Assembly: GCA_049976425.1 (NCBI GenBank)
Contig: JBMFIG010000002.1
Span: forward strand, 1-64,000
Length of the DNA: 64,000 nt
Direction: 5' to 3'
Origin: Thermoproteus sp.
GTDB lineage: Archaea; Thermoproteota; Thermoprotei; Thermoproteales; Thermoproteaceae
Of the stretch, positions 43,327 through 58,731 are shown piece by piece; position 1 is the stretch's first letter; the number at the start of each line of letters is the position of its first letter. The notes under the pieces are model-generated. The model was given only the letters and a program-made list of their open reading frames with translations. It searched no databases and was not told the origin of the DNA. The position numbers were made by a program, and so were the translations under genes.

Positions 43327-43400
43327 CGGCGCCCTCTACCCCTGCCCGTCTGGGCAGGGGTCATGGGGCTGGCCCGGGCCAGCACGGCGGGCCTTGAGAC
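43283..43400 (-). ncRNA. Candidate TnpB omega/reRNA scaffold
   Basis: Perfect hairpin ACCCCTGCCC-N4-GGGCAGGGGT (43338-43361) plus the right-end hairpin, overlapping the tnpB 3' end as expected for this family. The 5' boundary is a guess. Confidence 0.5.
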
Positions 43401-44674
43401 GGGCCTCTCGGCTTGGAGGACTATTCTACTCCATTCCTCCAGCCGTCTCTCGTCCACAGCAGATAGGGCTTTCTTGACGATCTCGGCGAATCTGGGATCG
43501 AGTTTTTCCGCGGCCCTCCTCAACATGTTGAGGACGGAGGCCACATCTCTGTGGACCCAGTGGTTGTGCGGACACAGCCCGATCTTCGGCCCCATCGGGA
43601 AGGAAAGCGGTTCGCCGTGTATTGGACACGTCTTGGAGTTCCTGTACGCGGATACCAGCAGGAGCCTCAGCCCCCTCTCCTCCGCCTTATCGGCGGTCTT
43701 GGCCAGTATCGCCTTCATCGGCGTTTGCTTGACGCGGTGCCTCAACTCGGCGTTTCTAGTCCTCTCAACCATCTCCTCTTGAGGCCTCTCGCCTACATCC
43801 TCTGTGATGAGGACGGCGGGCTCCTTCGTTAATTCGTGGGCAACCTTATTGACCCTATCCCTCTTCCTGTCCCTCTCCCTCAGCCTCCTCACCCGCTTCC
43901 TGTACTCTCTCGTGTGGACGCCGGATGCCCTCTTCCCGTTTATTTCTACTGTCAGCTCCTCGGCCCACTTCCTGCGGATCGCGCCGTAGCGCTTGGCCAG
44001 ACGGCCGAAATCGGTGCGGAACACCTTAATCGAGATCGGCGGAGATATCCACTGACAGTTCTGCCGCGCGACCGTATCGACAGTGGCCTTTAGATCAACC
44101 CTAGCCGCGACGACAGTGTTCTCATTGACGTCGAAGGCGGTTATGGCTACGGGCTCCTTCTCCCCTTCTGGCTCCACCTCGTAGGTGAAGACGGCGTATA
44201 CCCTGTCTCTGACGCGCTTCAGCCTAATCGTGCTGGCGCGTTTAGCCCTCCCCGTCTTGGCAAGCCACTCGAACTTCCAGAAGCGTCTGTGGGGCCAGAG
44301 CTCCACTACATGCCTGCCGGACATGAGGCGGATTGATAGAGCGGTCGCCGAGTCGAAGCGCCAGGCATCGCCTCTTACGTAAGGCGCCACGCGCCCCACC
44401 CTCGGAGGCCTCCTTCCCGCCTCGGCCCAAGAGTTGTACGCCTCCACGGCGTCCTTAACCGCCTGTTGCTGGTAGGCGGCGGGGAGGCCGAACTGCTTGA
44501 CGGAGTCCTTCACCTCGTGCCATACGCGGAAGTAGCTGGCCCCCCGTACTTCTCCACGAGGTAGTCCACCGTCATCTGCTTAGCCTTCCTGTACGCCCTC
44601 TCAAGCTCTAGGTAGTCGAGGAGCTGGTTGCCGTCGAGCAGAAGCGGCACTGCGACAGAGCGCCTAACCACCAT
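43323..44674 (-). pseudogene. tnpB: TnpB RNA-guided nuclease, frameshifted at a G6 run
   Basis: RuvC motifs AFDVNE, ITEDV and HRDVASVLN, plus SKTCPIHG...CPH. The upstream segment from ATG 44674 (MVVRRSV...EKYGG) needs one extra base at 44540-44545 to join ASYFRVWHEVKD. Confidence 0.8.
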
Positions 44675-45445: not shown

Positions 45446-45631
45446 AGAGAGGTGACCGACTCTGGTTTTTAACATTTCCGTCATAGTAATACCTAATTTG
45501 TGAGAATGAGATATATTTATTTATTGATTAATATTATTTAATTATAAATAAAATAAAATTACTATAGGTTGGTTCATCCAAATAATCGTCTTGGTGCGTA
45601 TCTAAGGTGCTTTTATAGGGTCGTTTTCGGC

Positions 45632-46198
45632 ATGGAGCACCTGTCCATATACCGCATGGCTGACGCCGTCCACGCCCTATTTGCGATCGATAGAGAGCCG
45701 TATGCGCTGAACGCGTTTCTGAAGATAGCAAACAGCTGGGTGTTGAGAGCGCTTTCCGACGTTCCGGGCTCGGATCTCAGGAGGCGTGCTTGTGGGGCCT
45801 TTATAAAACTGCTGGACAAAGCACGGAGCGTATTGGAAGCCCCGGCGGTCGTCAGAGCGCCCTGCTCGCCTAGAGGCGCGGCAAAGATAGAATCTATTAA
45901 GTACAGTGGCTGTGCCAAGTTTTTGGCAGAATGGGGGGCCGAGTTTGTCTATAGGTTTGTCTACGACGAAAGGATAAGGGCTAGGGCCGTAAAAGCTGCC
46001 GCGAGAAATTTGGCGGCTTATATGCAATACGGCTTGAGGGTCGAGGGCCCATATGCTGACGACTGGCTTGTCCTCGCCGAGGCTCCGCCGAGCTACGAGC
46101 CCCGCGACGTCGTGTGGAAGCCCTTTATGGCCAGAGTAAAGGTAGACATACTGCCTCAATGCGTGCAACTGTCCGCGGACGTTAGGACATGGATGTAA
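45632..46198 (+). CDS. Hypothetical protein, first gene of the pilus-associated operon
   Basis: ATG lies ~20 nt after TTTTATA and the gene overlaps the next one. Confidence 0.7.
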   Translation: MEHLSIYRMADAVHALFAIDREPYALNAFLKIANSWVLRALSDVPGSDLRRRACGAFIKLLDKARSVLEAPAVVRAPCSPRGAAKIESIKYSGCAKFLAEWGAEFVYRFVYDERIRARAVKAAARNLAAYMQYGLRVEGPYADDWLVLAEAPPSYEPRDVVWKPFMARVKVDILPQCVQLSADVRTWM

Positions 46199-46890
46199 AG
46201 GTCGATATAATAAACGCAGACAATCTCGCCGACTTCTTGAAGGAGCAGGCCGGAGCCACGGTGATAGATCCGTATCCCGAAATCGTGCCGACGGCGTTGG
46301 AGGACAAACTGCTATATCTAGCCTCGTCAATATACGGAGGGATAAGTCCTCTACCGCTGTTCTCGTTTGAGAAGGGAGGGGGCCGTTATTTACTGTCGCC
46401 GAGGCTCCACAAGCTTTTGGCCGACCTAATGCCGGGCCTCAAGGTGCTCCATATAGAGGTTGTCGGCGAGCCGCAGTACCCGTTTACGGCGATCGCGCTC
46501 GTGCTCAGAGATCTCGGCATCAGCGTCGACGAAAAATTCCTCAAGCAGTACATCTGTCCCGAGCTTGCCGCGTTGGAGGAGGACGACGTGCCGCTGGCGC
46601 GCGCCATAAGATCTGCCGTGTCCAAATACCTGACGATGGCGTCGTCGGGCGCCTCGACGCGATCGATAAAGTGTTTCTGCGGGCTCTGCGAGGATCGCGG
46701 CAGTGGACTGGACCTAGACGCGCTGGCGTTGAGCTTGACGAAGAGAGGCGCGTCGAGGGCATACAGCCGCCGCGGGTTAATGGACCTAAACGACGAGGAC
46801 AAGGCCATAATCATGCGCGTCATAAGAGGGCTTTCCATACCCGAATTCAGAAGGGAGCTCATCGATCTGCTCAACCGATATGAGGTATAG
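46189..46890 (+). CDS. Hypothetical protein, possibly a degenerate ParB/Srx-like domain
   Basis: LASSIYGGISPLPLF...GRYLL has ParB/Srx-like spacing but lacks the GxxR motif; also has a CFCGLC cluster. Confidence 0.5.
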   Translation: MDVKVDIINADNLADFLKEQAGATVIDPYPEIVPTALEDKLLYLASSIYGGISPLPLFSFEKGGGRYLLSPRLHKLLADLMPGLKVLHIEVVGEPQYPFTAIALVLRDLGISVDEKFLKQYICPELAALEEDDVPLARAIRSAVSKYLTMASSGASTRSIKCFCGLCEDRGSGLDLDALALSLTKRGASRAYSRRGLMDLNDEDKAIIMRVIRGLSIPEFRRELIDLLNRYEV

Positions 46891-47233
46891 ACGCGGCGAC
46901 TTCGAGGCGTCGTTTGTGCGGATAGGCGGGGACAAGTACAGAGTTGAATTAAAGTATAGGGGGAGGCCTCTAAAGATTAAGAAGATTGTTTTGGAGTATC
47001 TCGTCTACGATCGTTACAGATATGCCGTAGATCCCCACAGCGAGGTCCTCTACGTATTTATCTCGCGGACGCCTCCCGTAGTTGTCAAGTCGGCATGGAG
47101 GTCCTCCAAGATAATAGCGAAGGCCAAGGACGGCGCTCTGGCCGCCGTCGCCGACGTTGTCCTCGACTTCGCCGAGGTCTACATGACGGCGTACAGGGCC
47201 AATGCCCTCGATAGATTATTCCATGAGGACTAA
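46880..47233 (+). CDS. Hypothetical basic protein
   Basis: 117 aa, overlaps both neighbours. Confidence 0.7.
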   Translation: MRYRRGDFEASFVRIGGDKYRVELKYRGRPLKIKKIVLEYLVYDRYRYAVDPHSEVLYVFISRTPPVVVKSAWRSSKIIAKAKDGALAAVADVVLDFAEVYMTAYRANALDRLFHED

Positions 47234-47927
47234 GTTCGCGGTTTTCTTCTCGGTCGACGGCGGCGTGGGCAAGACGACGCTGGCGCTGGCCACCGCTTTT
47301 GAGAAGGAGAGGGTCCTCATAATAGATGCCGATTGGGAGAAGGCTGATCTATCCTCGATCTTCGGCGTTCCCAAAAGGCCCGGATGGCTCGCCGGCCGGT
47401 ACGGCAAGGACGTCTACGTGCATAAAGTTCGCCCAAACCTCTACGTGATACCCGGCTACGAGGCTGCTATGCTGTACCAGTCCGGCAAGATAGGCGACTC
47501 CGAGCTCTTCGAGGCGCTCTACGATACCCTAGTCGCGCTTCCCGACGCCTTGGCCGAGGAGCGTCTTCCGGTGGATACCGTGATTGTCGACACGCCGAAG
47601 GCGCTACAGCTGACGTGGATTGAGGCCTTGCAGAGGAAGCTCAAGGCGCTTATGTACTTCGTAGCCGATAGGCGGCTCGTCACGAGGATAGCCGATGTTA
47701 AGATGCAGATATACGGCAGATACATGCGCTACGCCTCGCTTATAGTGGCCAACATGTTGGAGAAGGGCGACGAGAAGGCCCCCGGTATAAAGATGGTAAA
47801 CGCGTTCTTGACGAGGGTCAAGATGCCCTCCGATTACTCAGCCGAGAGGATATACAAGGCGGTCTTAGGGGATCGGCGGAATAGAGAGGCGTTGTCGTTG
47901 TTGGTCAAGTGGATAAAAGAGAAGTGA
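47223..47927 (+). CDS. MinD/ParA-family ATPase (TadZ/CpaE-like)
   Basis: SVDGGVGKTT, VLIIDAD, NLYVIPG and VIVDTP. Start moved to ATG 47223. Confidence 0.85.
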   Translation: MRTKFAVFFSVDGGVGKTTLALATAFEKERVLIIDADWEKADLSSIFGVPKRPGWLAGRYGKDVYVHKVRPNLYVIPGYEAAMLYQSGKIGDSELFEALYDTLVALPDALAEERLPVDTVIVDTPKALQLTWIEALQRKLKALMYFVADRRLVTRIADVKMQIYGRYMRYASLIVANMLEKGDEKAPGIKMVNAFLTRVKMPSDYSAERIYKAVLGDRRNREALSLLVKWIKEK

Positions 47928-47928
47928 G

Positions 47929-49530
47929 ATGTCTTTGGCAGGTGCTCTGTTTGCCAAGGCCGATAACTCGTTGTTGGATAGGTGCGTGTTGTTCAAGAAA
48001 GGCGTGATGGTCTACCGCAATTACGCCACCGACATCTGCATAACAGACGACGGAGAGTACGTGGTGGTCGATCCGCAGTTGCCGGATGTTCTCGAGAAGG
48101 CCCTCGCGTTAACTGCGCTTCGTGGCGCCGTGCCGCCCGATTACGGGGAATACGACAAGGCAATAAAAGACGCGTTGCTGGCACTGGCGCCGAGCCGAGG
48201 CGTAGCCGGCTGGCGGTGGTATAGAAACGCCTTGCGGACATATAGAGAGCATAGAGAGCTCGTTCACTACTTCCTGGACAGATGGAGCGGACACGGCGAG
48301 TTCGGCGGCTACGGCGTGCTGGAGGCGCCTATGAGGGACGATCTACTGACCGAGATCGCCGTACCGCAACCCCTGGCGCCTCCAGGCAGGTGGAGCGAGC
48401 TTCCACGCAATCCGTTAGAGCTCTTGGACAAAATATACGCGGAGATGGTCGAGCTGGGGCGCTACCGGCGCGTCGTCGCGATCCGCAACGAGGCGCGAAT
48501 GCCCACTAACGTGGTGGTGCCGGAGGCCTTCATGCCCATATTGGTGAAGAAGCTGGTGCCGAGCTTGACCCTCGAGCGGCCGTTCCAGACCAGAGAGGAT
48601 CCCGTATATCGGCTCAGAATAGCGGCGGATCTGCTCGAGTACAACGTGAATATAAGGAAGATGAGCGAGCCGCCGCGGCCCTCGGCGGGCCTCATTAAGG
48701 TGTACGAGCGCCCGCGCCGTCTCGAGGACTCGGAGAGCCGGCCGAACGTCCAAGACCTCTCTGCTCTAGAGGTCTTCGCGCTGGCCACCATAGCAGCTGA
48801 GGCGAGATGGACGGTGATATTCTCAGGGGCCATGGGCACCGGCAAAACCACCCAGCTGAACCTCTTGCTCTACTTCATCCCGCCGTGGATGCAAGTCGTC
48901 ATCATAGAGAGAGGCGCGCGGGAGATCTGGGCGCCTCTGGAGGGCCAGATCCTCCACATATCGGTCCCCTCGGAGTCGAGGCTCATGGACGCTCTGGATC
49001 AAGCCCTCCGCTACGGCACCATGGCCACCATAGTGACTCTGGCAGAGGCCAGGACCAGCCAGGAACTTAACTTCTTAGTTTCCTACAAGTTGACGGGCCA
49101 CGGCGGGCTGACGACGATGCACGCCGACACCATACACGACGCCCTTCTGCGTATAAAGAGGTCGGGCGCCCCTGTCGAGGCCCTCGCAAACACCATGATT
49201 CTGCAACTAGGAGTATCCGGAGGCGAGAGGTATCTAAAAGAATGGAAGGCGTTGATAGCGCTGGGCGGAGAGGTGGCGGAGGCGCCTGTGGCCGATGTGT
49301 TGGGCCTTCTGAACGCCTACACCAAGTCCACATACGATACCAAGATCCTCGACGAGGTGAGGACGAGGGCCGGTCTACTTAAGGCGATCGCGTCCAAGGA
49401 GCTGGAGCCTCTCGAGGCGCGAGAGGCTGTACTGAAGCTCTTCTCCCGTAGAGAGATATCGGTGGTCGACGACGCCGTAAAGCACGGCTATCAGCTGGAA
49501 GGTAGATATTTCCATGAAGCTCAAGTTTAG
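47929..49530 (+). CDS. Type IV pilus/secretion assembly ATPase (TadA/VirB11/ArlI family)
   Basis: GYGVLE..M.D..LTEI, NIRK, Walker A SGAMGTGKTT, VIIE, LR...LAEAR and His box TGHGGLTTMHA. Confidence 0.92.
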   Translation: MSLAGALFAKADNSLLDRCVLFKKGVMVYRNYATDICITDDGEYVVVDPQLPDVLEKALALTALRGAVPPDYGEYDKAIKDALLALAPSRGVAGWRWYRNALRTYREHRELVHYFLDRWSGHGEFGGYGVLEAPMRDDLLTEIAVPQPLAPPGRWSELPRNPLELLDKIYAEMVELGRYRRVVAIRNEARMPTNVVVPEAFMPILVKKLVPSLTLERPFQTREDPVYRLRIAADLLEYNVNIRKMSEPPRPSAGLIKVYERPRRLEDSESRPNVQDLSALEVFALATIAAEARWTVIFSGAMGTGKTTQLNLLLYFIPPWMQVVIIERGAREIWAPLEGQILHISVPSESRLMDALDQALRYGTMATIVTLAEARTSQELNFLVSYKLTGHGGLTTMHADTIHDALLRIKRSGAPVEALANTMILQLGVSGGERYLKEWKALIALGGEVAEAPVADVLGLLNAYTKSTYDTKILDEVRTRAGLLKAIASKELEPLEAREAVLKLFSRREISVVDDAVKHGYQLEGRYFHEAQV

Positions 49531-49783
49531 GAACAACAACGATGGAGATCCCGAGATCAGCCTCGACGGCCAGCTAGAGCTAGGGCTGGCCGACCGCGAC
49601 GACCGCGAGGGCGATTGGGCCCTCCAGCTACTCAAGTCCCTACAGAGAGCGCCGCAGGAGATAGTCGACAAGCTAGACAGCGAACTGCTCGGGGCTGTCT
49701 TGAGGGAGGTCGCGAAGTCGGGAGGCGACGCAGGCGCGGTGGCGCGGCTGGCGCTTTCGTTGCTCGAGAGGTGTGGGAAATGA
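49514..49783 (+). CDS. Hypothetical acidic protein
   Basis: 89 aa, overlapping the ATPase stop and the next start (ATGA). Confidence 0.65.
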   Translation: MKLKFRNNNDGDPEISLDGQLELGLADRDDREGDWALQLLKSLQRAPQEIVDKLDSELLGAVLREVAKSGGDAGAVARLALSLLERCGK

Positions 49784-50187
49784 AGGACTGCGAGAAGTTG
49801 ATAGAGGACGGATACACGAGGGAGGCCGCCGAGGAGTTATGCGATACGGCTAAGGCCATAGGGATTAAGCCGTCCAGACTAGCCGCCGCTGCGAGGAGGC
49901 TCGAGAAGGAGGGCATAGCGTTGTTGCCCTCCGATTGGCTTGTGGTGAAGGAGGTGTTGGACAAGGGCTTCTCGCTGTCCACTGTCGTGGACTACATAGT
50001 GAAAAGGCATAGGGCCGGCCTATCGCCGTCGCAGATAATCGAGGAGCTACCTATAGCGGCCAACAACTCGGTCAAGAGAAGCCATATCTTGGGCAACTTG
50101 CTTAAGGTGCTGGAGGCGCCCGAATACTTCGTCGTGGAGGAGGACGGCGCTAGGAAGAGCTTGTTGCAGTTGTTGAGGCGTCGATGA
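49780..50187 (+). CDS. Hypothetical helical protein
   Basis: 135 aa from ATG 49780, with ATGA coupling at both ends. Confidence 0.7.
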   Translation: MKDCEKLIEDGYTREAAEELCDTAKAIGIKPSRLAAAARRLEKEGIALLPSDWLVVKEVLDKGFSLSTVVDYIVKRHRAGLSPSQIIEELPIAANNSVKRSHILGNLLKVLEAPEYFVVEEDGARKSLLQLLRRR

Positions 50188-51407
50188 ATAGGGAGGAGTT
50201 CTACATATACATAGCGCCGATCTTTGCAACGTATCTATCCCACATGTCCTCCGTCGAGGCCCTGAGGCGCACGGCGGCCGAGGCGGAGAGCCTAGACCGG
50301 AAGCACTCGCGCGAGCTGTTGCTAGCCAGCTTGACCCCGAACCCCGCCTCGTTGCTCTCGTCAGACGGGCTCGCCGTGGTGAGGCAGTACGGCTTCGCTG
50401 TATCTCAAGAAGAGGCGGGAGTACCCCGCCAAGTCCTCGTGCAGTCCTTCCTGCAGGCTATGAAGTCGATAGCGCTGGGCCGTATAGAGGCCGCCATGCA
50501 ACACTTCGTGGGGCTCTTCTCATCTCTGTCCAGCCTTATGTTCGCGCCGCTGTTACTGCTCTTCCTGTACGCGTACGGCCTTCTGCCTCTCGATCTCTTC
50601 TCGTTGCTGGGCGTAGCGGGAGTCTTCTCGTCTATGATAGGCCTACTGATATACAGATCGATGCCGAAAGATCTATCGCCGACCAGGACCTACGGCCGTT
50701 CTATCTTCCTGGCGGCCTTAGCCGGGGGCGCGGCGATTTATCTATCCATTGTCTGGTCCCTTCCAATATCGCTCGGCGCCGTTGCGGCCGGCGCCGTGTT
50801 GGCCATCTGGCTTCTGGCCACGAAACGCGTGGGGTGGTTTAGGCTAGCCGCCGAGATACCTGCCATGTTGAGAGATTTCGCCTCGCGTATATCCCAAGGC
50901 ATTCCCGCAGACCTCGCGTTGAGGGAGGTATCGGCGACCTACAAGGTGGCCTGGATGATAGCGTACTTCTACGAAATACCGTCCCTCATGTTCTCGTTGG
51001 CCAGAGCCATGTTCAACGCGGTGAGCTGGGCCGGGCCGAGCTTAGAGGCCGTAGACTACGTCCAGACGATCCTTAGCGAAAAGGAAAGGGGGTTGAAGAG
51101 GGTCACCGCGCTCACCGCCATGTTCATAGCCATATATCTGGCGGCGTCGGTGATACTGGTCTATTCACTTGCGGTATCGGTAACGGCGTTGCAAGCCGTC
51201 CCGTCGACGGGACAGTCGTTGATATACCCGCTACCTCCCGACGAGGTGAGGTACGCGGCCGCGCAGTTGCTGTCGGCTATGGTCACAAGCTTTGTCGCCG
51301 TGATGTTGCTCCCCTCGAAAGGCATGTGGGCCGGTCTTCTAGCGGGCGGCCTCGCCGGCATGTCGTTCTTCTACCTAACGACGGCGTTGTGGTCGCTTTG
51401 GGCATGA
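50184..51407 (+). CDS. Pilus membrane platform protein (TadC/ArlJ-like)
   Basis: Two soluble-plus-TM repeats, EIPAMLRDFASRISQGIP...AL motif, located after the ATPase. Confidence 0.82.
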   Translation: MNREEFYIYIAPIFATYLSHMSSVEALRRTAAEAESLDRKHSRELLLASLTPNPASLLSSDGLAVVRQYGFAVSQEEAGVPRQVLVQSFLQAMKSIALGRIEAAMQHFVGLFSSLSSLMFAPLLLLFLYAYGLLPLDLFSLLGVAGVFSSMIGLLIYRSMPKDLSPTRTYGRSIFLAALAGGAAIYLSIVWSLPISLGAVAAGAVLAIWLLATKRVGWFRLAAEIPAMLRDFASRISQGIPADLALREVSATYKVAWMIAYFYEIPSLMFSLARAMFNAVSWAGPSLEAVDYVQTILSEKERGLKRVTALTAMFIAIYLAASVILVYSLAVSVTALQAVPSTGQSLIYPLPPDEVRYAAAQLLSAMVTSFVAVMLLPSKGMWAGLLAGGLAGMSFFYLTTALWSLWA

Positions 51408-51922
51408 GGGGCTTCTTGGCCTTGAAACAGATAGTCGTCGTGGCCGCATCGCTCGCGGCGATTGCCGTGATCGCGTTGGCGGTATATAGAGCTACTGTCG
51501 AGGTGAGGGCCGCATATCCCTTAGCCGAAATTGCCGTAGCGATCAAGTCCTTCAAGCCTGTGGCCGTCCCCGACTATGTGCCCGTCTACGTGGTGAAAAC
51601 CCATTACCAACGCTCGGGAGGGCGTTACGTGTTGTTGCCAGGCCCCTCGCCTCCGACGTGTAACGACTGCGTGCCGCCGGCAGGTTGGCTCTATGCCGTC
51701 TCGTTCGGGGCGAACGCATCGCCGATATACGGAGTTTACTACAACGCGGCGAACTACACTGTGTACGTCGGGAGAGCGGTGGTCGTAGCGCCCTATTTTG
51801 ACAACGGCACGCTCTATTATCTATACCCCATGTGCACGGGCGGCTACCGTTTTTCCGAAAGAGCGATCCACATAGATAATGTACCTATATCTATTACTAT
51901 AATTTTACTAGATTGCTCTTAA
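51404..51922 (+). CDS. Pilin-like protein (class III signal peptide)
   Basis: MRG|FLALKQIVVVAASLAAIAVIALAV followed by a beta-rich Cys-containing domain. Confidence 0.7.
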   Translation: MRGFLALKQIVVVAASLAAIAVIALAVYRATVEVRAAYPLAEIAVAIKSFKPVAVPDYVPVYVVKTHYQRSGGRYVLLPGPSPPTCNDCVPPAGWLYAVSFGANASPIYGVYYNAANYTVYVGRAVVVAPYFDNGTLYYLYPMCTGGYRFSERAIHIDNVPISITIILLDCS

Positions 51923-52017
51923 TAAATATATAATATTAATTAAGAATAAAAATATAATATATTTTTATCATAGATAACACGTCTGTTGTGGTGTGAACTT
52001 GTTGTTGCTGTTTTTCC

Positions 52018-52479
52018 ATGAGACGTCTAAAAGGACAGGCAGGCGGTATAGACGCGTTGATAATCATAGCCGTGGTGGTGGCCGTCGCCGCCATAATCGC
52101 GTTAGCCATGATGCGGATGGGCCAGTCGGCCTCTGCCAATACCAGGGCACAGGTGATAGCAACCATAGGTAGCAAGGTCATGACCGTGGAGGTCCAAGTC
52201 CTCAATGGGAAGCTCAACGCGCTCTATCTACAGTACTGGAAACAAGGTGAGTCGCCTAGCCCGCCTATCAACGGCACGTGCTATTACAACGGCACGAGCG
52301 GCTTCGTCAACAGTAGTTCCAGCAACATACAGCTCTACACCGGCCAATCCGCCGTGTGCTACTTTAGCCTTAACAATCTGGCATACGGCACGCAGTACAG
52401 CTACGTCATATACGGCGTCGACTCCAGCGGTAGGACTATCCAGCTGGCCCGCGGCGTGTTTACGGCAGGCGCCACCTAG
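52018..52479 (+). CDS. Candidate major type IV pilin
   Basis: MRRLKG|QAGGIDALIIIAVVVAVAAIIALAM, 153 aa, NGT/NGT/NSS sequons, with its own AT-rich upstream region (51920-51975). Confidence 0.82.
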   Translation: MRRLKGQAGGIDALIIIAVVVAVAAIIALAMMRMGQSASANTRAQVIATIGSKVMTVEVQVLNGKLNALYLQYWKQGESPSPPINGTCYYNGTSGFVNSSSSNIQLYTGQSAVCYFSLNNLAYGTQYSYVIYGVDSSGRTIQLARGVFTAGAT

Positions 52480-52763
52480 AGGCAGACGATCTCCAAAGAA
52501 TCCCCTTTTTCCGGCGGCCTTTCCTCTTTCGGTAGCTCGAGGGTATGCGCCGCCCTCGGCTCTCTGTGGGTCTTCCAAGGCTTTAGGTACAAGACGTCCA
52601 CTACACGCATCTCTTCGTCGAGGAATACTGCCCATATGGGCTCCAGCATGAGGAACGTGTGTATCGAGTTCACTCCAATTAAAAGGATCGGCCTAGGTCT
52701 GCGCAACATCAAGCCCAGCCCGCGCCTCAACCGATCCCTATAGCATTTCGCATATATTTCCAT
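52476..52763 (-). CDS. DUF192 family protein
   Basis: GLM, SIHTFLM..PI.AVFLD...VV...LKPW and TLELP. Confidence 0.85.
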   Translation of the reverse strand: MEIYAKCYRDRLRRGLGLMLRRPRPILLIGVNSIHTFLMLEPIWAVFLDEEMRVVDVLYLKPWKTHREPRAAHTLELPKEERPPEKGDSLEIVCL

Positions 52764-52790
52764 GGGAATAAGTAGAGGAGGGGGCGGGCC

Positions 52791-53069
52791 ATGGACGTCG
52801 ACGTACTAGCGATGGTGGTCGTTATGGCGCTGGCGCTCGCCGTATTAGCGCTTATACAGCCGGTGGAGCTGTCGTCGCCTTCGCTATCGGCGATCTACAG
52901 ATACTGGCCCCAGTACTACAACTACACTATCCACGGCGACGTAGCCGCCTTGAGGCCTCTGCTGTCCGGGCTGACATGCTGGCTCTACGCAGACGGTAGT
53001 TGGGTAGAGATATCGAGATCGGGAGGCCTTGGTCTATCGATATCGGTGCTGAACTTGACCTGTAGATAA
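52791..53069 (+). CDS. Small membrane-anchored pilin-like protein
   Basis: GAGGAGG upstream; MDVD then a TM and a small Cys-paired domain. Confidence 0.65.
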   Translation: MDVDVLAMVVVMALALAVLALIQPVELSSPSLSAIYRYWPQYYNYTIHGDVAALRPLLSGLTCWLYADGSWVEISRSGGLGLSISVLNLTCR

Positions 53070-53072
53070 TCC

Positions 53073-53399
53073 ATGGAGGAGCTGGTGGAGCTCGCCTCAG
53101 TGCTGGCCGTGGCCTCGCTGTCCGTTCTATTGATCTTCTTGACATACACCCACTTCACTTCATGGAGTCTGTGCGAGGCGGCGCGGCTCGCCTTGGGCCA
53201 CAACGGCTCTGCGTTTGTAGTCTCGGCATTCGGCGAGATCTCGTGCGATGGGTCCGGTTGCTATCTCGGTTGCGGCTTGTTCGTGCCGTCGTATCGGATA
53301 TACTACGTCGACGGAAAGCCGGCGATAGGCGGCGTGCCCGGCGTCGTGGTGGTCGGCACAACCCCCGACGGAAGGCTGTACATCCTGCCGAGGGGATGA
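53073..53399 (+). CDS. Small membrane-anchored pilin-like protein
   Basis: MEELVE then a TM and a 4-Cys domain. Confidence 0.65.
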   Translation: MEELVELASVLAVASLSVLLIFLTYTHFTSWSLCEAARLALGHNGSAFVVSAFGEISCDGSGCYLGCGLFVPSYRIYYVDGKPAIGGVPGVVVVGTTPDGRLYILPRG

Positions 53400-53866
53400 G
53401 AGGCCAGATCTCGTCGCCGGTGGCCGCCTCGATCTTCGCGCTCCTAGTGGCCGTACTGACGCTCTTCGCCTTCATGAAGCTTTCGTCGTTGCCTCACGGC
53501 GGCTATCTAGCGCCTCTATCGCCGCCGCAGGGCGGACCTGCCAGGTGGATACACGTTTTCTACCACAACGGAGAACTCTGGATGGTCGATGCGGAGACGC
53601 CGTCTCCTACGCTGGCCGAAATCGCTGTCGGCGTAAACGGGACGTGGGTGGCCACATTCTATCTATGGCCGGGTGGGTACAACTGTACCTATAACTCCTC
53701 CTTCGTGCTGGGCGGCGAACCTATATCCGCCTCGAACCCGTTGAGAATAGGGCCGGATCCCTACTCCGGGCTCTGGTGCCCGCCGCCGTGGAAGGGCGGA
53801 GGCGTCTGTTCGGCTACCGTCGTTGAGTCTAGGGGGAGACTTCTCCTGGCTAGATGTATTCCATGA
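53396..53866 (+). CDS. Minor pilin (class III signal peptide)
   Basis: MRG|QISSPVAASIFALLVAVLTLFAF from ATG 53396, with ATGA overlap. Confidence 0.75.
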   Translation: MRGQISSPVAASIFALLVAVLTLFAFMKLSSLPHGGYLAPLSPPQGGPARWIHVFYHNGELWMVDAETPSPTLAEIAVGVNGTWVATFYLWPGGYNCTYNSSFVLGGEPISASNPLRIGPDPYSGLWCPPPWKGGGVCSATVVESRGRLLLARCIP

Positions 53867-54954
53867 GAGGAGTACAGATAACGACTACTCTGATCGCGAC
53901 CGCGGCGCTAGCCGTGGCGGCGACAGTCGCGATCGCCTTAATTGTCGTCGGCGCGGCGTCGGCGGATCTTCCGAGCGCCACGGCGTCGGTGACCGAGCAG
54001 AACGGCGTAGTCGTGGCGTCGATAACCGTGTTGCGGGGCGCCCTATACGGCGTCGCGCTTATGTACAGAGCGCCGGACGGCTCGATGTGGTATGCGAGGC
54101 CGATATACTGTCTCGGCGCCCAGACGCGGACGACGGCGACCTCGGCCCTACTCGGGAGGCCTCTGTACGCAGGCCAGGGGGTAACATGCGCCTTCCAGAT
54201 GTGGTATCCGGCCGCCGGCGACTACGCCTTCGATCTTCTAGGCCTTGGAGAAAAGGGCGCAGTGAGCATCGTGAGGGGAGTCGTGGCCGCGGCGCGGGCC
54301 AACGGCTATTCCGGCCAACTGCCGGCGGGAAATCTCTACGGCGTGGGGCAGACGCCGTCCATAGGACTCACTAAGAACGGGTACAACTTCACGTCTATCT
54401 CGATATATTGGCCAAGTCGCGGATATCTAGCCGTCGAGGTTAAGTGGGGCTATACCAACTCGACGTGTGTAGCTGACGGGCTGTATGTATCCCTATTCGT
54501 CCCTCAGAGCGCCCGTAGCCTCGTCGCGCCTTCTGACGAGGGTCTCGGCGTATTGCCGTTCGGAGGCGCCGACTACGTGCCCGCGGGAGGCCCCCTGCAG
54601 CTCTTCGTACAGCTCAACCCCTACGACTACGGGCGCGAGGACGGATCTTTTGAGTTCGCTGTGATGAACTCGTCGGGAGGCAGAGGCGTTGTAAGGCCGG
54701 CTGGCTTCAACGGCCTCAAGTCGTGGCCGACGGAGATCTGGACCACTTATCTGCTGTACAACTCCTCGAGCAATACTCTGTTTGTCGAATGGGCGGCGCC
54801 CGACGCCTTCAGCGAGGCGTATACCTATAATCTGACTAGCTACGGCTTCGCCAGACCTCCGGCGGGGAACTACGCCGTCGTGATAGGGGTCGCCAACGGC
54901 GGATGTACTGCCGACTGGCGCGTGTACGATTACGCAATAGCGTCAGGGGGGTGA
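53863..54954 (+). CDS. Pilin-like protein with a C-terminal L-type lectin-like domain
   Basis: MRG|VQITTTLIATAALAVAATVAIALIVVG. The C domain has ADGLYVSLF...GLG...LFVQLNPY...LYNSSSNTL.V...VIGVANGG. Confidence 0.7.
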   Translation: MRGVQITTTLIATAALAVAATVAIALIVVGAASADLPSATASVTEQNGVVVASITVLRGALYGVALMYRAPDGSMWYARPIYCLGAQTRTTATSALLGRPLYAGQGVTCAFQMWYPAAGDYAFDLLGLGEKGAVSIVRGVVAAARANGYSGQLPAGNLYGVGQTPSIGLTKNGYNFTSISIYWPSRGYLAVEVKWGYTNSTCVADGLYVSLFVPQSARSLVAPSDEGLGVLPFGGADYVPAGGPLQLFVQLNPYDYGREDGSFEFAVMNSSGGRGVVRPAGFNGLKSWPTEIWTTYLLYNSSSNTLFVEWAAPDAFSEAYTYNLTSYGFARPPAGNYAVVIGVANGGCTADWRVYDYAIASGG

Positions 54955-55289
54955 TGGACCTATACATAGTGTCGGCCGCCGTCTCTCTAGCCGTCGCCGC
55001 CGTGATCGCCGGCGCGTTTCTTATGCATGTGGGCGTCCAGGCCGGCGCGCCCAGATGCTCAGATTGCGTATTTTACGTCGAGGGACCCGTTGCGCTGGTC
55101 CAGACGAACGGCTCCGCTTATCTGGTCCGCGGACCGGTGCTCACAAACTCGTCGATTATGGCCCAATACGCCTGGGCCTACGGACCCGACGGGCGTCCTC
55201 TAAGGCCTGGCGAGGAGCTCGTGTGCCCCGTCCTCATGCGCGTCGAGGTGATCGACGGGATAGCCTACGCCTTGTGCGTCGGGCGATGA
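54954..55289 (+). CDS. Small membrane-anchored pilin-like protein
   Basis: MDLY then a TM and a 4-Cys domain; TGATG coupling. Confidence 0.65.
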   Translation: MDLYIVSAAVSLAVAAVIAGAFLMHVGVQAGAPRCSDCVFYVEGPVALVQTNGSAYLVRGPVLTNSSIMAQYAWAYGPDGRPLRPGEELVCPVLMRVEVIDGIAYALCVGR

Positions 55290-55861
55290 GAGGCCAGTGG
55301 TCTCTTGCGTACGCCCTAGTGGCCGTCGCTGTCGTGGCCTGGACCGCGGCAGTCCTGTCGAGCTCGCACCCGCGCTACGTCCCGATAGACTACCCGCAGG
55401 TGCTCTACGAGCTGAAGCTGGAGTCCCTCGTGGCTTCCCAGATCCACTGTATCACGTACAACGCCACGCCGTCCTCGATCTACTGCAACGGCTCTGCCCT
55501 ATACCTCTCGGGAGTCAACAGATCCCTGCTGGTGTATTATCGAGGCGGCCTTGTGGCGGCGCGTCTGTCCAGATCGTGGGGGCCTATAAACTACACCCTA
55601 TATCTGGCCTTGGTAAACTGTACTAAGGCAATTGCGCAAAACGGCGGCGCGGCGCGGGTCTACTACATCGCGCTGTCGTCAACGCTCGACTATATGCCCG
55701 AGCTGTACGTCAACGCCACCGCGGCCGAGATAGCGGCCTTGGGCAAAGACGGCTATTATCTGTCGCCGCAGAGGGAATACCTCGTAGCGGTGTCTAGAGG
55801 CTCCCACATAGAGGTAGTGGACTTCCCTGTGTCGTTGACGATCAGTTGTGATATTCCATGA
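55286..55861 (+). CDS. Minor pilin (class III signal peptide)
   Basis: MRG|QWSLAYALVAVAVVAWTAAVL from ATG 55286, many NxT/S sequons. Confidence 0.75.
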   Translation: MRGQWSLAYALVAVAVVAWTAAVLSSSHPRYVPIDYPQVLYELKLESLVASQIHCITYNATPSSIYCNGSALYLSGVNRSLLVYYRGGLVAARLSRSWGPINYTLYLALVNCTKAIAQNGGAARVYYIALSSTLDYMPELYVNATAAEIAALGKDGYYLSPQREYLVAVSRGSHIEVVDFPVSLTISCDIP

Positions 55862-58731
55862 GGTGGGTAGTCCTAACGCTGGCGATCGCGTTCTTGGCCT
55901 GGGCGGCAGTCCAGGCCCCGAACTGTCAGCTGGTTAACGCCACCCTCATTTCGAGCGGCGAACCGCCCCCAGAAGCGCCTATTTCGATAAGCATAGACCT
56001 CCACTTTCTAGGCATACCGAGGGCCGCGTCGATCCCTGCGATCTACGTGGCGGGCAACACATCGTATATTGCCAGCTCTGGCGGCTACGCCAGCTACGGC
56101 CTCGCGAGAGGATCTATATTTGTAGCAAATAATCCCCTTCCCTCAAATGGAAAATTCAATATAACAATATTTATAAATTATTATACTTATAAATATGATA
56201 TATATTATGTAATATATAATTGTTCAGGAACTATAAAAGAGGGCACTCTAGCGAACGTAACCGAGGTATCGCAGTCGATATATAGTGACGAGGCCGGCGG
56301 AGCGATACCGGGTATTGACTGGAGCTACGCGCGGACCGTGTATCTGCCCGCCCCGTATAGATCTCTGCCGACAGATTGGTACCTCGGGCCCAGCCTAGAC
56401 GACTACGTCGAGATATCTGTGGCCGTCAAAGAGCCGAGCGTCTTGAGCGGGCTCTCCGTCGGGCAGATAAACGAGGGCGCGCTCGGAATAAGCGCGGTCG
56501 TCAACTCGACGTCGCTGGTCTTCGGCGACGTCGCGCGAGGACTGCCGCAGAACAACCCGTTTAGGACGAGGTACTCGCCGAGTAGCTTCAGCTGGAGTCC
56601 TCAAGGATCCGAGGGGTACCTTTCAGGCTATCTCCCGTTGGATAAGGACTTCCCGAGCTCCGTGAGCTTACAGGCATGGCTTGTGCCGGAGTATTGGACG
56701 GCGCCGTTGGAGATAGAGTCGCCGAATGCGCCTGGGATCGTCGCCCTCCGCACCAGCTATATCCTGCTCAACCAGACCGCCGAGGGGCTTGTGGCCCTGT
56801 TTGATCCGACCTACAGAGTCGTGGCCGAGACCTACGTGTCGCAGTGGCCCAACTTCGCGGCCGCGGTCAGCCACCTGCTGGCCGCCGCCTCGTCGGGGGA
56901 GTTGCCCTCTCTCGGCCCGTTCGCGCTGTCGCCGTTGGCCTCCGGCTCGGGCGGATGGGAGTACTACAACCTGTATACTTACGTTGAATGGCCCGCCGAC
57001 GTCCTCTGGGAGCCTTATCTGCGTTTCGGCTCCGCCGAGATCTGGATCGAAGGAGGCTCGGCTAACGTCTACATGCCGGCGGGAGGCGTCGCGGACTTCT
57101 ACGCGTCGTTGCTGGGATATCTGATCTACGGAGGCCGCTACGTAGGGTACTCGCCTAGAGGCTACGGAGGATTTTCAGGCTACGTCGCGGTAAGTCCTCT
57201 GAGCGGCAACGTGGCGTGGGACGGACATTACGGAGGCGTCACGCTCACAGAGGTCGGCGGGTACGGAGCCACGTCGCGGCTGATCCCGTGGTCCTATCCG
57301 GCCCCCTCGGATCTGCCCACTTACGGCCTCGCGATGCTCCTATCGCGTTGGTCCTACTCGACGTCGCCGGACTATATATGGGCCACGCTTGTTGGCGGCT
57401 ATTACCAGTACACGAGCCCGGCCACCGACCCCATCACCGGCCTCACGGGTGTTGCCCAAGGAGCTGTCTTCGCCTCGCCGCCGCCCAAGGGGCCCGCCTA
57501 TCCGGCTGACGTGTACGTCTACGTGCTACAGCCGTGGGGTTCGGCGAGCCAAAGTGCCGCGTCGTATGTGTCGAGCGTAGTGAGGGGGAATAACGGCCAG
57601 CCGATCGGCGCGATTCTGTGGTCGCTGGTGCCTCTGGTCCCATGTAGGTCGCTCTCCTGCGCCGATCCTCAGAAAGCTTGGTGGAACGGCGAGTTCTCAG
57701 GGAACGCGGCGCTGAAGGGAGCGGCCTACGGGCTGGCCGTCATGTGGTTCGGCAAATCCCCCATCAGTGTAACCATATACGTCAACGCGAGCGGCGCGCG
57801 GTACGTCAACGGGTCTTGGGCTGGCTCGACGTGGCCGACGGCCGGGACCTGCAACATTTCCCTCGGCACATTCCAGCTGGAGCCCCATAAGCCGTACTTG
57901 GTAGTGCCGGGCTCTGCGGTCCCCCTCCCCAACTCGTCCGGTTGCGGGCTGGCCCCGACTCCGCCGGGCTGGCTCCTCACGCCCACAGACGATGGCTTCT
58001 TCTGGGTAGAGTTCGTAACCGGCAAAACGGCCAGCTACGGGTACTACTACACGACCGCGCTGGCCGTGAACTATACAGTATCCGACGACTTGGGCCGCCT
58101 CCTCCGCCCCGGCGAGATCTTCGCCGCCACTTTCTGTCTGGCGATAAACGGAACGAGACCATATCCCCCCTCCCTCGCCAACTGGTTCCCGTCTGGTTGC
58201 GCGCCGTTGGGCTGGCTTCCGCTGGACATATCGCATGGCCCCTACGTATATTGGAAGGCGGACTGCTCCGACGGCCAGGCAAGCGTGCGGGGCGATATAG
58301 GGCCCTACGCGGGTTTCGACGTGATGTTGGGGTCCGTGGGGCTGATGCACGGCTCCATATTATATGTATATATAAAGCCATATATTCTTGTAAATAGTTC
58401 TGGTATCTATATATATGTAGACAGTAATCTCAGTAAATATATAAAAGGCTATTATCTATATCTAAATAGAAACGGGACGTGGGTACGTCAATATTTCTGT
58501 CCAGGCGACGTGATACACATGCCGTGGAGCGTGGCCGAGAAGCTGGCCGTATATCCCTGGGATCCCGTCAAGGTACTGCCCGCGCTGAGCCTCACGGCGC
58601 TCGCCAAGTCGGATATAGTGTACCCGATACCTCAGTGGTCCACCCTGGCCAACTGGTGGTCTCTGCCAACCGATGCGGGGATGTACAGCGACCTCTCTGC
58701 GCTCGCCTCGCTCGGCTGTATCCCCGCGTAG
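55858..58731 (+). CDS. Large secreted protein, candidate pilus adhesin
   Basis: 957 aa, signal peptide, Y/W/G/S/P-rich with many sequons and no clear C-terminal TM; last gene of the pilin run. Confidence 0.72.
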   Translation: MRWVVLTLAIAFLAWAAVQAPNCQLVNATLISSGEPPPEAPISISIDLHFLGIPRAASIPAIYVAGNTSYIASSGGYASYGLARGSIFVANNPLPSNGKFNITIFINYYTYKYDIYYVIYNCSGTIKEGTLANVTEVSQSIYSDEAGGAIPGIDWSYARTVYLPAPYRSLPTDWYLGPSLDDYVEISVAVKEPSVLSGLSVGQINEGALGISAVVNSTSLVFGDVARGLPQNNPFRTRYSPSSFSWSPQGSEGYLSGYLPLDKDFPSSVSLQAWLVPEYWTAPLEIESPNAPGIVALRTSYILLNQTAEGLVALFDPTYRVVAETYVSQWPNFAAAVSHLLAAASSGELPSLGPFALSPLASGSGGWEYYNLYTYVEWPADVLWEPYLRFGSAEIWIEGGSANVYMPAGGVADFYASLLGYLIYGGRYVGYSPRGYGGFSGYVAVSPLSGNVAWDGHYGGVTLTEVGGYGATSRLIPWSYPAPSDLPTYGLAMLLSRWSYSTSPDYIWATLVGGYYQYTSPATDPITGLTGVAQGAVFASPPPKGPAYPADVYVYVLQPWGSASQSAASYVSSVVRGNNGQPIGAILWSLVPLVPCRSLSCADPQKAWWNGEFSGNAALKGAAYGLAVMWFGKSPISVTIYVNASGARYVNGSWAGSTWPTAGTCNISLGTFQLEPHKPYLVVPGSAVPLPNSSGCGLAPTPPGWLLTPTDDGFFWVEFVTGKTASYGYYYTTALAVNYTVSDDLGRLLRPGEIFAATFCLAINGTRPYPPSLANWFPSGCAPLGWLPLDISHGPYVYWKADCSDGQASVRGDIGPYAGFDVMLGSVGLMHGSILYVYIKPYILVNSSGIYIYVDSNLSKYIKGYYLYLNRNGTWVRQYFCPGDVIHMPWSVAEKLAVYPWDPVKVLPALSLTALAKSDIVYPIPQWSTLANWWSLPTDAGMYSDLSALASLGCIPA

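What the first reader, a model, noticed from the sequence alone, without database searches (positions are those of the whole stretch)
45632..58731. Elaborate type IV pilus-like locus with an unexplained cytoplasmic front module
Seen: one tightly coupled + strand run of three unknown genes, a MinD/ParA ATPase, a TadA/VirB11 ATPase, two more unknown cytoplasmic genes placed between the ATPase and the TadC-like platform, five class III-signal pilins, three pilin-like proteins and a 957-aa secreted protein, with DUF192 on the opposite strand. Established: ATPase + TadC + class III pilins define archaeal type IV pili; the prepilin peptidase (PibD) is often encoded elsewhere and is absent here. Inference: this is a multi-subunit adhesive or DNA-exchange pilus with five uncharacterised cytoplasmic accessory proteins. 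Such loci are predicted for Thermoproteales in general, but I cannot tie this architecture to a characterised system. It is the best candidate for a new system in the window.
Basis: partly seen in the sequence, partly recalled or inferred. Interest (0 to 1): 0.8.

Follow-up and report, generated by a model that had tools for sequence, protein, structure and literature searches.

The report
Catalogued archaeal pilus with ParB-like cassette
This is an already catalogued but apparently untested pilus gene cluster of a heat-loving archaeon, and its unexplained front genes form a cassette, predicted to include a ParB-like protein, that relatives also carry beside DNA-transfer-type genes and that likely sets where such surface machines are built.

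Summary
The locus is real but catalogued. Seven proteins compared are 91-98% identical to Thermoproteus uzoniensis proteins between TUZN_0626 and TUZN_0635, and 15 of 16 gene lengths equal that locus, filed in 2016 as a subclade 4G type IV pilus; my searches found no experimental test. The scan reported 4G loci before in two other genomes. The 'absent' prepilin peptidase lies 63 bp past the window end.

New here is the front module. Three genes precede MinD in 5 of 5 same-genus loci (third missing in one) and 15 of 17 Pyrobaculum-type loci. The second gene's predicted fold is closest to ParB/sulfiredoxin in both lineages, which share no detectable sequence there; scores are modest (Z 5.5, 4.8), a profile test failed and the GxxR motif is lost. 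MinD lacks its signature lysine in 23 of 23 such loci. Relatives of g1, MinD, g6 and g7 recur without pilus core genes before a membrane HerA/VirB4-like ATPase in 14 of 18 off-pilus regions (8 genomes), some with Ted pilin genes. Best reading: a cell-contact pilus with a ParA/ParB-derived positioning cassette shared with Ted-type DNA-transfer loci; mechanism untested.

The parts
45485..45631 (.). AT-rich (73%) intergenic stretch between divergent usp and g1, with two TATA-like hexamers; likely promoter region
   Evidence: function inferred
45632..46198 (+). g1, 188 aa, soluble, basic; arCOG14030; remote relative of the first front gene of Pyrobaculum-type loci; fold unknown
   Evidence: 95% to TUZN_0626, table row; hhalign to A6 prob 48%, E 1.8e-4, above 25 of 25 shuffles
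46189..46890 (+). g2, 233 aa, soluble; arCOG14031; N-terminal ~95-140 residues predicted to adopt a ParB/sulfiredoxin-like fold, GxxR motif lost
   Evidence: model; Foldseek; VIA-align; negative profile test
46880..47233 (+). g3, 117 aa, soluble, basic; no arCOG, no family; the least conserved cassette gene
   Evidence: 96% to TUZN_0628; present in 4 of 5 same-genus relative loci
47223..47927 (+). MinD/ParA-family ATPase (arCOG05608); deviant Walker A reads DGGVGKT, signature Lys replaced by Asp
47929..49530 (+). 4G secretion ATPase (arCOG05609), 533 aa
   Evidence: 98% to AEA12122.1; table rows; PF00437
49514..49783 (+). g6, 89 aa, acidic, conserved helical C-terminal ~55 aa; positional equivalent of arCOG07479; follows MinD directly in off-pilus cassettes
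   Evidence: alignment A4; weak MgtE_N match in 2 of 21 members, best E 0.0037
49780..50187 (+). g7, 135 aa, helical, weak HTH-like signal; arCOG05610
50184..51407 (+). TadC-like platform protein (arCOG05611), 407 aa
   Evidence: 97% to TUZN_0633; hydropathy
51404..51922 (+). g9, predicted minor pilin (arCOG05617), class III-like signal
52018..52479 (+). g10, predicted major pilin (arCOG05612, PilA family); basic-Gly signal motif kept in 20 of 20 orthologues scored
   Evidence: 91% to TUZN_0635; best PDB match an archaeal pilin at E 0.005
52476..52763 (-). DUF192-like gene (arCOG03113); likely passenger, found in 4 of 5 same-genus relatives and in no Pyrobaculum-type locus
52791..53069 (+). 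g12, pilin-like (arCOG05618), no class III motif
53073..53399 (+). g13, pilin-like (arCOG05619), no class III motif in this copy
53396..53866 (+). g14, predicted minor pilin (arCOG05614), class III-like signal
53863..54954 (+). g15, 363 aa, g10 paralogue with an extra C-terminal domain (arCOG05612); relaxed class III motif
54954..55289 (+). g16, secreted pilin-like protein (arCOG07478)
55286..55861 (+). g17, predicted minor pilin (arCOG05615), relaxed class III motif
55858..58731 (+). g18, 957 aa secreted protein, 11 Cys, 16 N-glycosylation sequons; arCOG05616, predicted adhesin
   Evidence: no PDB sequence match below E 0.9

Best explanation
The locus is a Thermoproteus subclade 4G type IV pilus gene cluster that likely builds an adhesive cell-contact pilus, and its six soluble genes (g1, g2, g3, MinD, g6, g7) form a conserved cassette that would choose and mark the assembly site, with the predicted ParB-like g2 likely acting as a catalytically degenerate adaptor for MinD. 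Shown: identity with the catalogued 4G locus (about 0.97); co-conservation of the cassette with the pilus genes; recurrence of cassette relatives before HerA/VirB4-like membrane ATPases without pilus core genes; loss of the MinD signature lysine. From established T4P biology: the nearby peptidase would cleave class III signals, the ATPase and TadC would polymerise g10 with minor pilins and display the 957-aa g18. Inferred: adhesion or cell contact as the job (about 0.75); ParB/Srx fold of g2 (about 0.7); the cassette as a functional unit around MinD (about 0.75); spatial positioning, in the manner of TadZ/CpaE or VirC1, as its mechanism (about 0.45); g6 and g7 as the link from MinD to the machine (about 0.35).
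For: Gene-for-gene match to the 4G rows of T. uzoniensis and T. tenax. Front genes syntenic in 5 of 5 same-genus loci (g3 in 4 of 5) and three positional equivalents in 15 of 17 Pyrobaculum-type loci; g2 found in 6 of 62 genomes of the order, single copy, always at this locus. g2 model: all 26 Foldseek rows shown are ParB/Srx-type proteins by their titles or (Atu1540, SbnI, serine kinase) by my recall, best prob 0.99, E 2.6e-3; top two of 48,161 chains are pNOB8-like ParB-N (Z 5.5, rmsd 5.6, 118 aligned) and sulfiredoxin (Z 5.0, rmsd 5.0, 89 aligned). The Pyrobaculum-type second gene, with no sequence similarity to g2, independently ranks the ParB-like PadC first in three searches (Foldseek E 0.45; Z 4.8, rmsd 3.9, 89 aligned). 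MinD reads DGGVGKT in 23 of 23 Thermoproteus/Pyrobaculum-type loci and KGGTGKS in 4 of 4 loci of the other family; the Tad-pilus positioning ATPase TadZ also lacks this lysine and localises to the pole (passages). Cassette relatives precede a membrane HerA/VirB4-like ATPase in 14 of 18 off-pilus regions with no TadC or core pilin match; in five of them g6 and g7 follow MinD directly.
Against: Fold scores are under Z 8, the range the tool calls common; no Foldseek match reached E 0.001. Profile-profile alignment of g2 with 26 archaeal ParB_N domains falls in the expected register but does not beat column shuffles (44 of 60 and 19 of 25 shuffles as good), and the Pyrobaculum second gene does not align at all (52 of 60). 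g2 and g3 have no detectable sequence link to their Pyrobaculum positional equivalents, so the window's own g2 and g3 are not directly tied to the off-pilus cassettes; the tie runs through MinD, g6, g7 (clear) and g1 (weak). The five complete off-pilus cassettes come from only two genomes, and all off-pilus regions were picked because they matched cassette genes. Four loci of the other family have ATPase and MinD but no cassette, so 4G-type pili can do without it. No expression, localisation or interaction data exist here.
Confidence: 0.5

Rival explanations
1. The 4G pilus is the mating-contact pilus of the Ted DNA-transfer system, the counterpart of Sulfolobus Ups pili for Ced; paralogous cassettes would place both machines at the same site. 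Compatible with the best explanation, but a narrower claim about function.
For: A complete second 4G locus is followed by the membrane ATPase (L008); in L025 a related ATPase-MinD pair lies between TedA/TedC-like genes and the membrane ATPase; cassette genes precede the membrane ATPase upstream of a pilin matching TedC, PDB 8DFT, at E 7.5e-64 (L073). Ted loci are reported to carry a ParA/MinD ATPase, and Ups plus Ced work this way.
Against: In the window's genome the Ted-type genes are on another contig (C51) and unlinked. Of the 26 loci with a 4G-type ATPase and MinD examined, only L008 and L025 show the membrane ATPase inside the fetched stretch (stretches at most 20 kb). No DNA-repair genes flank the window's locus. 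The 2026 paper leans to adhesion or cell recognition.
Confidence: 0.25
2. The cassette is the partition or maintenance module of a conjugative element (like aspA-parB-parA of pNOB8) in which the pilus genes once travelled; it is now a domesticated or decaying leftover acting on DNA, not on the pilus.
For: Multi-copy, element-like occurrences (five or more in one genome); best fold match is the pNOB8-like ParB-N, which sits in an overlapping three-gene partition cassette; g1, g3 and MinD are basic (pI 9.2-9.7); 0 of 13 Thermoproteales genomes searched have a recognisable PF02195 ParB.
Against: The pilus ATPase gene sits inside the cassette, between MinD and g6, with overlapping stop/start codons, and the order is kept across two genera at about 45-55% protein identity; the single chromosomal copy is intact; both the ParB GxxR motif and the ParA signature lysine are lost, which argues against a classical partition cycle.
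Confidence: 0.2
3. The cassette is regulatory: MinD acts like FleN/FlhG, binding a transcription factor (g7, HTH-like) or a motor part (g6, FliG-like repeat) to set pilus number or expression rather than position.
For: The published annotation of arCOG05608 is 'FleN family'; FleN structures are among the top PDB matches of the MinD profile; g7 has weak HTH matches (HTH_24 in 8 of 21 members, best E 0.0096); g6 weak MgtE_N/FliG_C matches.
Against: All these matches are below family cut-offs; nothing explains the predicted ParB-like fold of g2; no operator repeat was looked for or found.
Confidence: 0.12

Closest known systems
Subclade 4G archaeal T4P (Makarova, Koonin, Albers 2016, PMC4858521) = subsystem 4G (PLoS Genet 2026, PMC13705601); T. 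uzoniensis locus beginning TUZN_0626, T. tenax TTX_0962-0973 region
   Same: Same gene order and 15 of 16 gene lengths; 91-98% identity for seven proteins compared; arCOG05608-05612, 05614-05619, 07478.
   Different: No difference in gene content from the T. uzoniensis row. Pyrobaculum-type loci add a ~325-aa protein (arCOG05613) after the major pilin, move g9, g12, g13 to the end and lack DUF192. The papers list the three front genes as 'uncharacterized', not as T4P parts, and in the passages read give no fold or link to Ted.
Tad pilus positioning ATPase TadZ/CpaE; Agrobacterium VirC1
   Same: MinD/ParA-family ATPase encoded with a filament or transfer machine; TadZ also lacks the signature lysine (passages).
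   Different: No receiver-like N-terminal domain (recalled for TadZ); five extra soluble genes, one predicted ParB-like; archaeal pilus.
ParB-like adaptors: pNOB8 ParB (AspA-ParB-ParA), Myxococcus PadC, Noc
   Same: Predicted N-terminal fold of g2 and of its Pyrobaculum positional equivalent; encoded in an overlapping cassette upstream of a ParA-family gene.
   Different: Under 17% identity, no profile match, GxxR motif lost, no centromere or AspA shown, pilus context.
Ted DNA-transfer system of Thermoproteales (Beltran 2023, PMC9905601) and Ups/Ced of Sulfolobales
   Same: Cassette relatives sit before the membrane HerA/VirB4-like ATPase of Ted-type loci.
   Different: The window's locus holds no TedA, TedC or VirB4-like gene; its ATPase scores far under the BasE and FlaI cut-offs (37 of 1000 and 27 of 550 bits).
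P. arsenaticum pilus, PDB 6W8U (Wang 2020, PMC7347861)
   Same: A Thermoproteaceae type IV pilus with disulphide-bonded pilin; virus receptor.
   Different: Not matched by the g10 profile at E up to 10; the 2026 paper assigns it to subsystem 4E. No 4G filament structure was found.

Membership tests
Subclade 4G T4P | diverged ATPase arCOG05609 | tested here: met
   98% (521/533) to the T. uzoniensis 533-aa protein listed as arCOG05609
Subclade 4G T4P | diverged TadC arCOG05611 | tested here: met
   97% to TUZN_0633; same length and position
Subclade 4G T4P | PilA-family major pilin arCOG05612 plus several Cys-containing minor pilins | tested here: met
   91% to TUZN_0635; 2-4 Cys in each of eight pilin-like proteins
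Subclade 4G T4P | own FleN/MinD ATPase arCOG05608 | tested here: met
   same 705-nt length and position as the table row; MinD/ParA matches
Subclade 4G T4P | two small helical cytoplasmic proteins; large secreted arCOG05616 | tested here: met
   g6, g7 and g18 by position, size and orthology; Ig folds of g18 not modelled here
Archaeal type IV filament core | ATPase, platform, class III pilin, class III peptidase in the genome | tested here: met
   peptidase identified by position and 603-nt length against the arCOG02298 row, not by a family scan
Archaeal type IV filament core | a filament is actually assembled | not testable with these tools
   no expression or structural data
ParB/Srx superfamily (g2) | ParB/Srx fold | tested here: inconclusive
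   top rank in four of four searches of the g2 model and its positional equivalent by VIA-align, but Z 4.8-5.5, under 8; Foldseek E 2.6e-3 and 0.45
ParB/Srx superfamily (g2) | GxxR nucleotide-binding motif (motif recalled; visible in the ParB_N alignment) | tested here: not met
   aligned position reads S-x-R/K-L/V-H in 11 of 11 g2 sequences; not filed as a ParB member
ParB/Srx superfamily (g2) | sequence match to PF02195 or to archaeal ParB_N profile | tested here: not met
   no Pfam match at E 0.1; none in G000; hhalign not above shuffles
ParABS / AspA-ParB-ParA partition systems | ParA with signature lysine | tested here: not met
   Asp in 23 of 23
ParABS / AspA-ParB-ParA partition systems | site-specific DNA-binding protein and centromere-like site | not tested
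   folds of g1 and g3 unknown; no repeat search run
Ted/Ced DNA-transfer system | TedA, TedC and VirB4-like ATPase in the locus | tested here: not met
   homologues lie on contig C51, not in the window's locus
Archaellum, bindosome | FlaI or BasE ATPase at curated cut-off | tested here: not met
   27 of 550 and 37 of 1000 bits

The most novel reading that the evidence does not exclude
Thermoproteaceae have a six-gene, ParA/ParB-derived positioning cassette, with a catalytically dead ParB-fold adaptor and a lysine-less MinD, that has been plugged onto two unrelated envelope machines, the 4G type IV pilus and the Ted conjugation-like apparatus, to build both at the same cell site; the 4G pilus is then the missing contact pilus for DNA exchange in this order, and its ATPase gene was inserted into the middle of an element-borne cassette.
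Probability: 0.22. Interest if true: 0.75.

Novelty: new member of a known kind. Interest (0 to 1): 0.42.

Why it matters
The pilus locus itself adds little: a near-identical copy has been in a published table since 2016. The cassette is the useful part. It gives the first fold hypothesis (in the papers I could search) for a 4G front gene, turns five 'unknown' genes into one testable unit around MinD, and links an untested pilus to the Ted DNA-transfer loci. If right, it names candidates for how rod-shaped Thermoproteales, in which no ordinary ParB was detected (0 of 13 genomes searched), place surface machines, and for the pilus that brings cells together before DNA import.

Tried and rejected
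Pfam and NCBIfam gave nothing for g1, g2, g3, g6, TadC, g9, g12-g18 (Pfam; NCBIfam for the subset g1-g3, g6, g7, TadC, g10, g15, g18). Homologue searches with g1, g2 and g6 profiles returned only close, unnamed or 'hypothetical' relatives (8, 8 and 15 proteins); the g1-family profile found 26 representatives among 1.84 billion and no PDB match better than E 0.28. ESM Atlas: no usable hit for g1, only unnamed clusters for its Pyrobaculum-type relative. PDB profile searches with g6 and g7 gave only chance-level or designed-protein hits; the FliG/MgtE_N idea for g6 stays a lead. hhalign found no link g2-A7, g3-A8 or either to ParB_N above shuffles. No RNA holder was listed for 45500-52600. The sigma-70 promoter scan does not suit archaea and matched chance (7 found, 6.8 expected). 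No ATPase tree was built, because direct 98% identity to a classified protein settled the clade. Rejected: new pilus class (published table); archaellum or bindosome; g10 as the solved P. arsenaticum pilin; DUF192 as a core part (patchy, opposite strand). Rows dropped before counts: L032, L033, L035 (repeat stretches already fetched), L084, L090, L040 (overlap L075, L073, L008). Not in print, as far as searched: arCOG14031 and arCOG05606, arCOG05605, 05607, 07479, 05610, 14030, TUZN_0627 (0 papers), Ted + Thermoproteales + type IV pili + ParB (none with all four), Pyrobaculum + conjugative + VirB4 + ParA (listing only); these cover main texts of open papers only. The supplements of the 2026 paper (S6 Fig, tables) and of its preprint were not seen and may annotate the front genes.

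Full report
1. Observation. The window is bases 1-64000 of contig C2 of a 1.84-Mb genome. 14 of 16 plus-strand junctions overlap or nearly touch; a 95-bp AT-rich gap precedes g10 and a 311-bp gap holds DUF192. The ATPase has an intact Walker A and recognisable Asp-box, Walker B and His-box positions (box names recalled) and matches PF00437. g1, g2, g3, MinD, g6 and g7 have no hydrophobic segment; three pilins fit a strict class III pattern and two a relaxed one. The prepilin peptidase is 63 bp beyond the window end.

2. Identity. Exact look-up placed window proteins in 90% clusters with named T. uzoniensis 768-20 proteins; the seven compared are 91-98% identical. Supplementary Table S4 of Makarova et al. 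2016 lists that locus as subclade 4G, with arCOG05608 MinD, 05609 ATPase, 05610, 05611 TadC, 05612 (twice), 05614-05619 and 07478, and the peptidase arCOG02298 five genes after upp; 15 of 16 gene lengths are identical to the window's. The T. tenax row is the same but for g3, g6 and DUF192. The paper calls 4G 'highly complex', notes the MinD and two small helical intracellular proteins of unclear function (section 14). The 2026 PLoS Genetics paper repeats this, likens arCOG05616 to hook-like adhesins and says the function is unknown (section 17). The only solved Pyrobaculum pilus is assigned there to 4E and is not matched by the g10 profile. Two earlier scan reports on other genomes reached the same filing; I had the 2016 match before reading them and took the lead to the 2026 work from one.

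3. The front genes are co-conserved. In both published Thermoproteus rows g1 and g2 are 'uncharacterized' (arCOG14030, 14031) and not marked as T4P parts. Yet g1 and g2 precede MinD in 5 of 5 same-genus loci with a close ATPase orthologue, g3 in 4 of 5, and g2 occurs in 6 of 62 genomes of the order, once each, always here. Pyrobaculum-type loci (so called from the named record L034) carry three other genes at the same place in 15 of 17 loci, matching arCOG05605-05607 by position and size; the other two loci have a diverged g1-family gene. g1 is a remote relative of the first of these (prob 48%, E 1.8e-4, above 25 of 25 shuffles). g2 and g3 show no sequence link to their positional partners. 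g6 and g7 have clear orthologues in both genera.

4. g2 is predicted to be ParB-like. The g2 model (pLDDT 70; mostly 76-91 over residues 1-130) retrieved sulfiredoxin, Noc, ParB, PadC, KorB and pNOB8-like ParB-N in Foldseek (best prob 0.99, E 2.6e-3; none at E 0.001). In the unbiased search of 48,161 chains the top two are pNOB8-like ParB-N (Z 5.5, rmsd 5.6, 118 aligned) and sulfiredoxin (Z 5.0, rmsd 5.0, 89 aligned); most lower rows align only the helical part 94-170 (second look). The model of the Pyrobaculum-type second gene (pLDDT 80) independently ranks PadC first (Foldseek E 0.45; Z 4.8, rmsd 3.9, 89 aligned). Against: these Z values are in the range the tool calls common; hhalign to 26 archaeal ParB_N domains puts g2 in the expected register but 44 of 60 and 19 of 25 shuffles score as well; the GxxR position is degenerate in 11 of 11 g2 sequences. 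I put the fold at about 0.7 and do not file g2 as a ParB. PF02195 matched 65 of 121 genomes of the phylum but 0 of the 13 Thermoproteales among them.

5. The MinD is atypical. The signature lysine is Asp in 23 of 23 Thermoproteus/Pyrobaculum-type loci and Lys in 4 of 4 ATPase-MinD loci of the other family, which also lack the front genes. These are kin, so this is one event, not 23. Passages read state that this lysine serves dimerisation and hydrolysis and that the Tad-pilus ATPase TadZ works without it, and that TadZ/CpaE and VirC1 position a pilus or transfer machine at the pole.

6. The cassette also occurs without the pilus. Profile searches found further copies of g1-family, MinD, g6 and g7 genes. 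I fetched 18 non-overlapping off-pilus regions, chosen because they matched. In 14 of 18 (8 genomes) cassette genes precede a 630-690-aa membrane HerA/FtsK-family ATPase (one is a fragment), with weak VirB4, VirD4 and CedD matches below cut-off; the other four are L036 (MinD and g7 alone), L072, L076 (contig end) and L087 (fragment). Five regions, from two genomes, read g1-like, one gene, one or two small genes, MinD (DGGVGKT), g6, g7, then the ATPase. None of L071-L090 matches TadC, g10, g14, g16 or g17 at E 0.001; L086 holds a g13 copy. TedC- and TedA-like genes lie in L071, L073, L081 and L083; the L073 pilin matches TedC, PDB 8DFT, at E 7.5e-64. Beltran et al. note a ParA/MinD gene in Ted loci. 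I did not determine whether the membrane ATPase is TedB or TedD. In a quick FastTree tree (midpoint root, untrimmed, no clade test) five off-pilus MinDs form their own clade (support 1.0) beside the 4G MinDs and two nest among Pyrobaculum-type 4G MinDs, which suggests exchange but fixes no direction. Two loci join both machines: L008 (whole 4G locus, then the membrane ATPase) and L025. In the window's genome each cassette gene is single and Ted-type genes are on contig C51.

7. How it likely works. Established T4P logic, applied by inference: the peptidase trims class III signals, the ATPase on TadC polymerises g10, minor pilins prime the filament and carry g18 as adhesin. New inference: the six soluble genes are one module, into which the pilus ATPase gene is set between MinD and g6. 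Because the same module serves two unrelated envelope machines, a general job such as choosing the assembly site fits best: MinD as a slow or static marker like TadZ, g2 as a degenerate ParB-fold adaptor like PadC or pNOB8 ParB (adaptor role in passage), g6/g7 as the link to the machine. Confidence 0.5 overall. Rivals: Ups-like mating pilus for Ted (0.25, compatible), relic partition module (0.2), FleN-like regulator (0.12).

8. Papers seen. PMC4858521: passages, section 14, Table S4 rows and parts 191, 251, 253. PMC13705601: passages and section 17, supplements not seen. Preprint 10.64898/2026.04.22.720090: search listing only. Passages only: PMC3189178, PMC7347861, PMC9905601, PMC11823120, PMC11407121, PMC10482377, PMC5120986.

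9. Verdict. A new, near-identical member of a catalogued but untested pilus class; not a new system. The cassette reading is the part worth following: interest 0.42; most novel reading probability 0.22, interest 0.75 if true.

Noticed in passing
G000:C2:64063-64665 (-), 63 bp past the window end: Prepilin peptidase gene (200 aa), same length and neighbours as the arCOG02298 row of the published table.
   Followed up: partly
window 43323-44513 (-): 396-aa ORF that looks like an IS200/IS605 TnpB protein (label recalled, not scanned), next to usp.
   Followed up: no
L006:537-8090 (between ATPase codons ~155 and 156): The 4G ATPase of a same-genus genome is split by a ~7.5-kb insertion with a TnpB-like ORF, an HD-domain-like ORF and a P-loop ORF (labels recalled); only a 10-bp direct repeat was found near the ends.
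   Followed up: partly
L022:3953-5236 and L037:7214 onward: A Pyrobaculum-type 4G ATPase stops matching at residue ~366 and the rest of the locus resumes about 21.6 kb downstream; a second, independent disruption of the same gene, perhaps an integration hot spot.
   Followed up: partly
L078-L082, L075/L084, L083, L085, L086, L088: A repeated element family (five or more copies in one genome) carrying the cassette, a membrane HerA/VirB4-like ATPase, a second ~305-aa HerA-like ATPase and a RadA-like gene; it looks like an integrated conjugative element related to Ted loci; boundaries and integrase not sought.
   Followed up: partly
L008:18194-19900 and L086:1172-5375: A whole second 4G locus directly followed by the membrane ATPase, and a locus reading MinD, g13, then the membrane ATPase, as if the pilus genes between had been deleted.
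   Followed up: partly
L025:6837-18223: In the other family an ATPase-MinD pair lies between TedA/TedC-like genes and the membrane ATPase, all on one strand.
   Followed up: partly
G000:C51:1783-5164 (-); C44:1306-2775, C48:1760-3979, C1:254415-255905: The window's genome has Ted-type genes (membrane ATPase, TedC-like, TedA-like, adjacent) and three further secretion ATPases.
   Followed up: partly
window 49514-49783: g6 family has weak MgtE_N (2 of 21 members, best E 0.0037) and FliG_C (1 of 21, E 0.029) matches; a FliG-like repeat beside a pilus motor would be notable but is unproven.
   Followed up: partly
L004:9618-10910: In one same-genus locus g16 is fused to a domain similar to the C-terminal part of g15, and g3, g15 and DUF192 are missing.
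   Followed up: no
L036:1080-2507: An orphan Thermoproteus-type MinD, a 78-aa gene and g7 with no pilus genes, back to back with a Pyrobaculum-type 4G locus in the same genome.
   Followed up: partly
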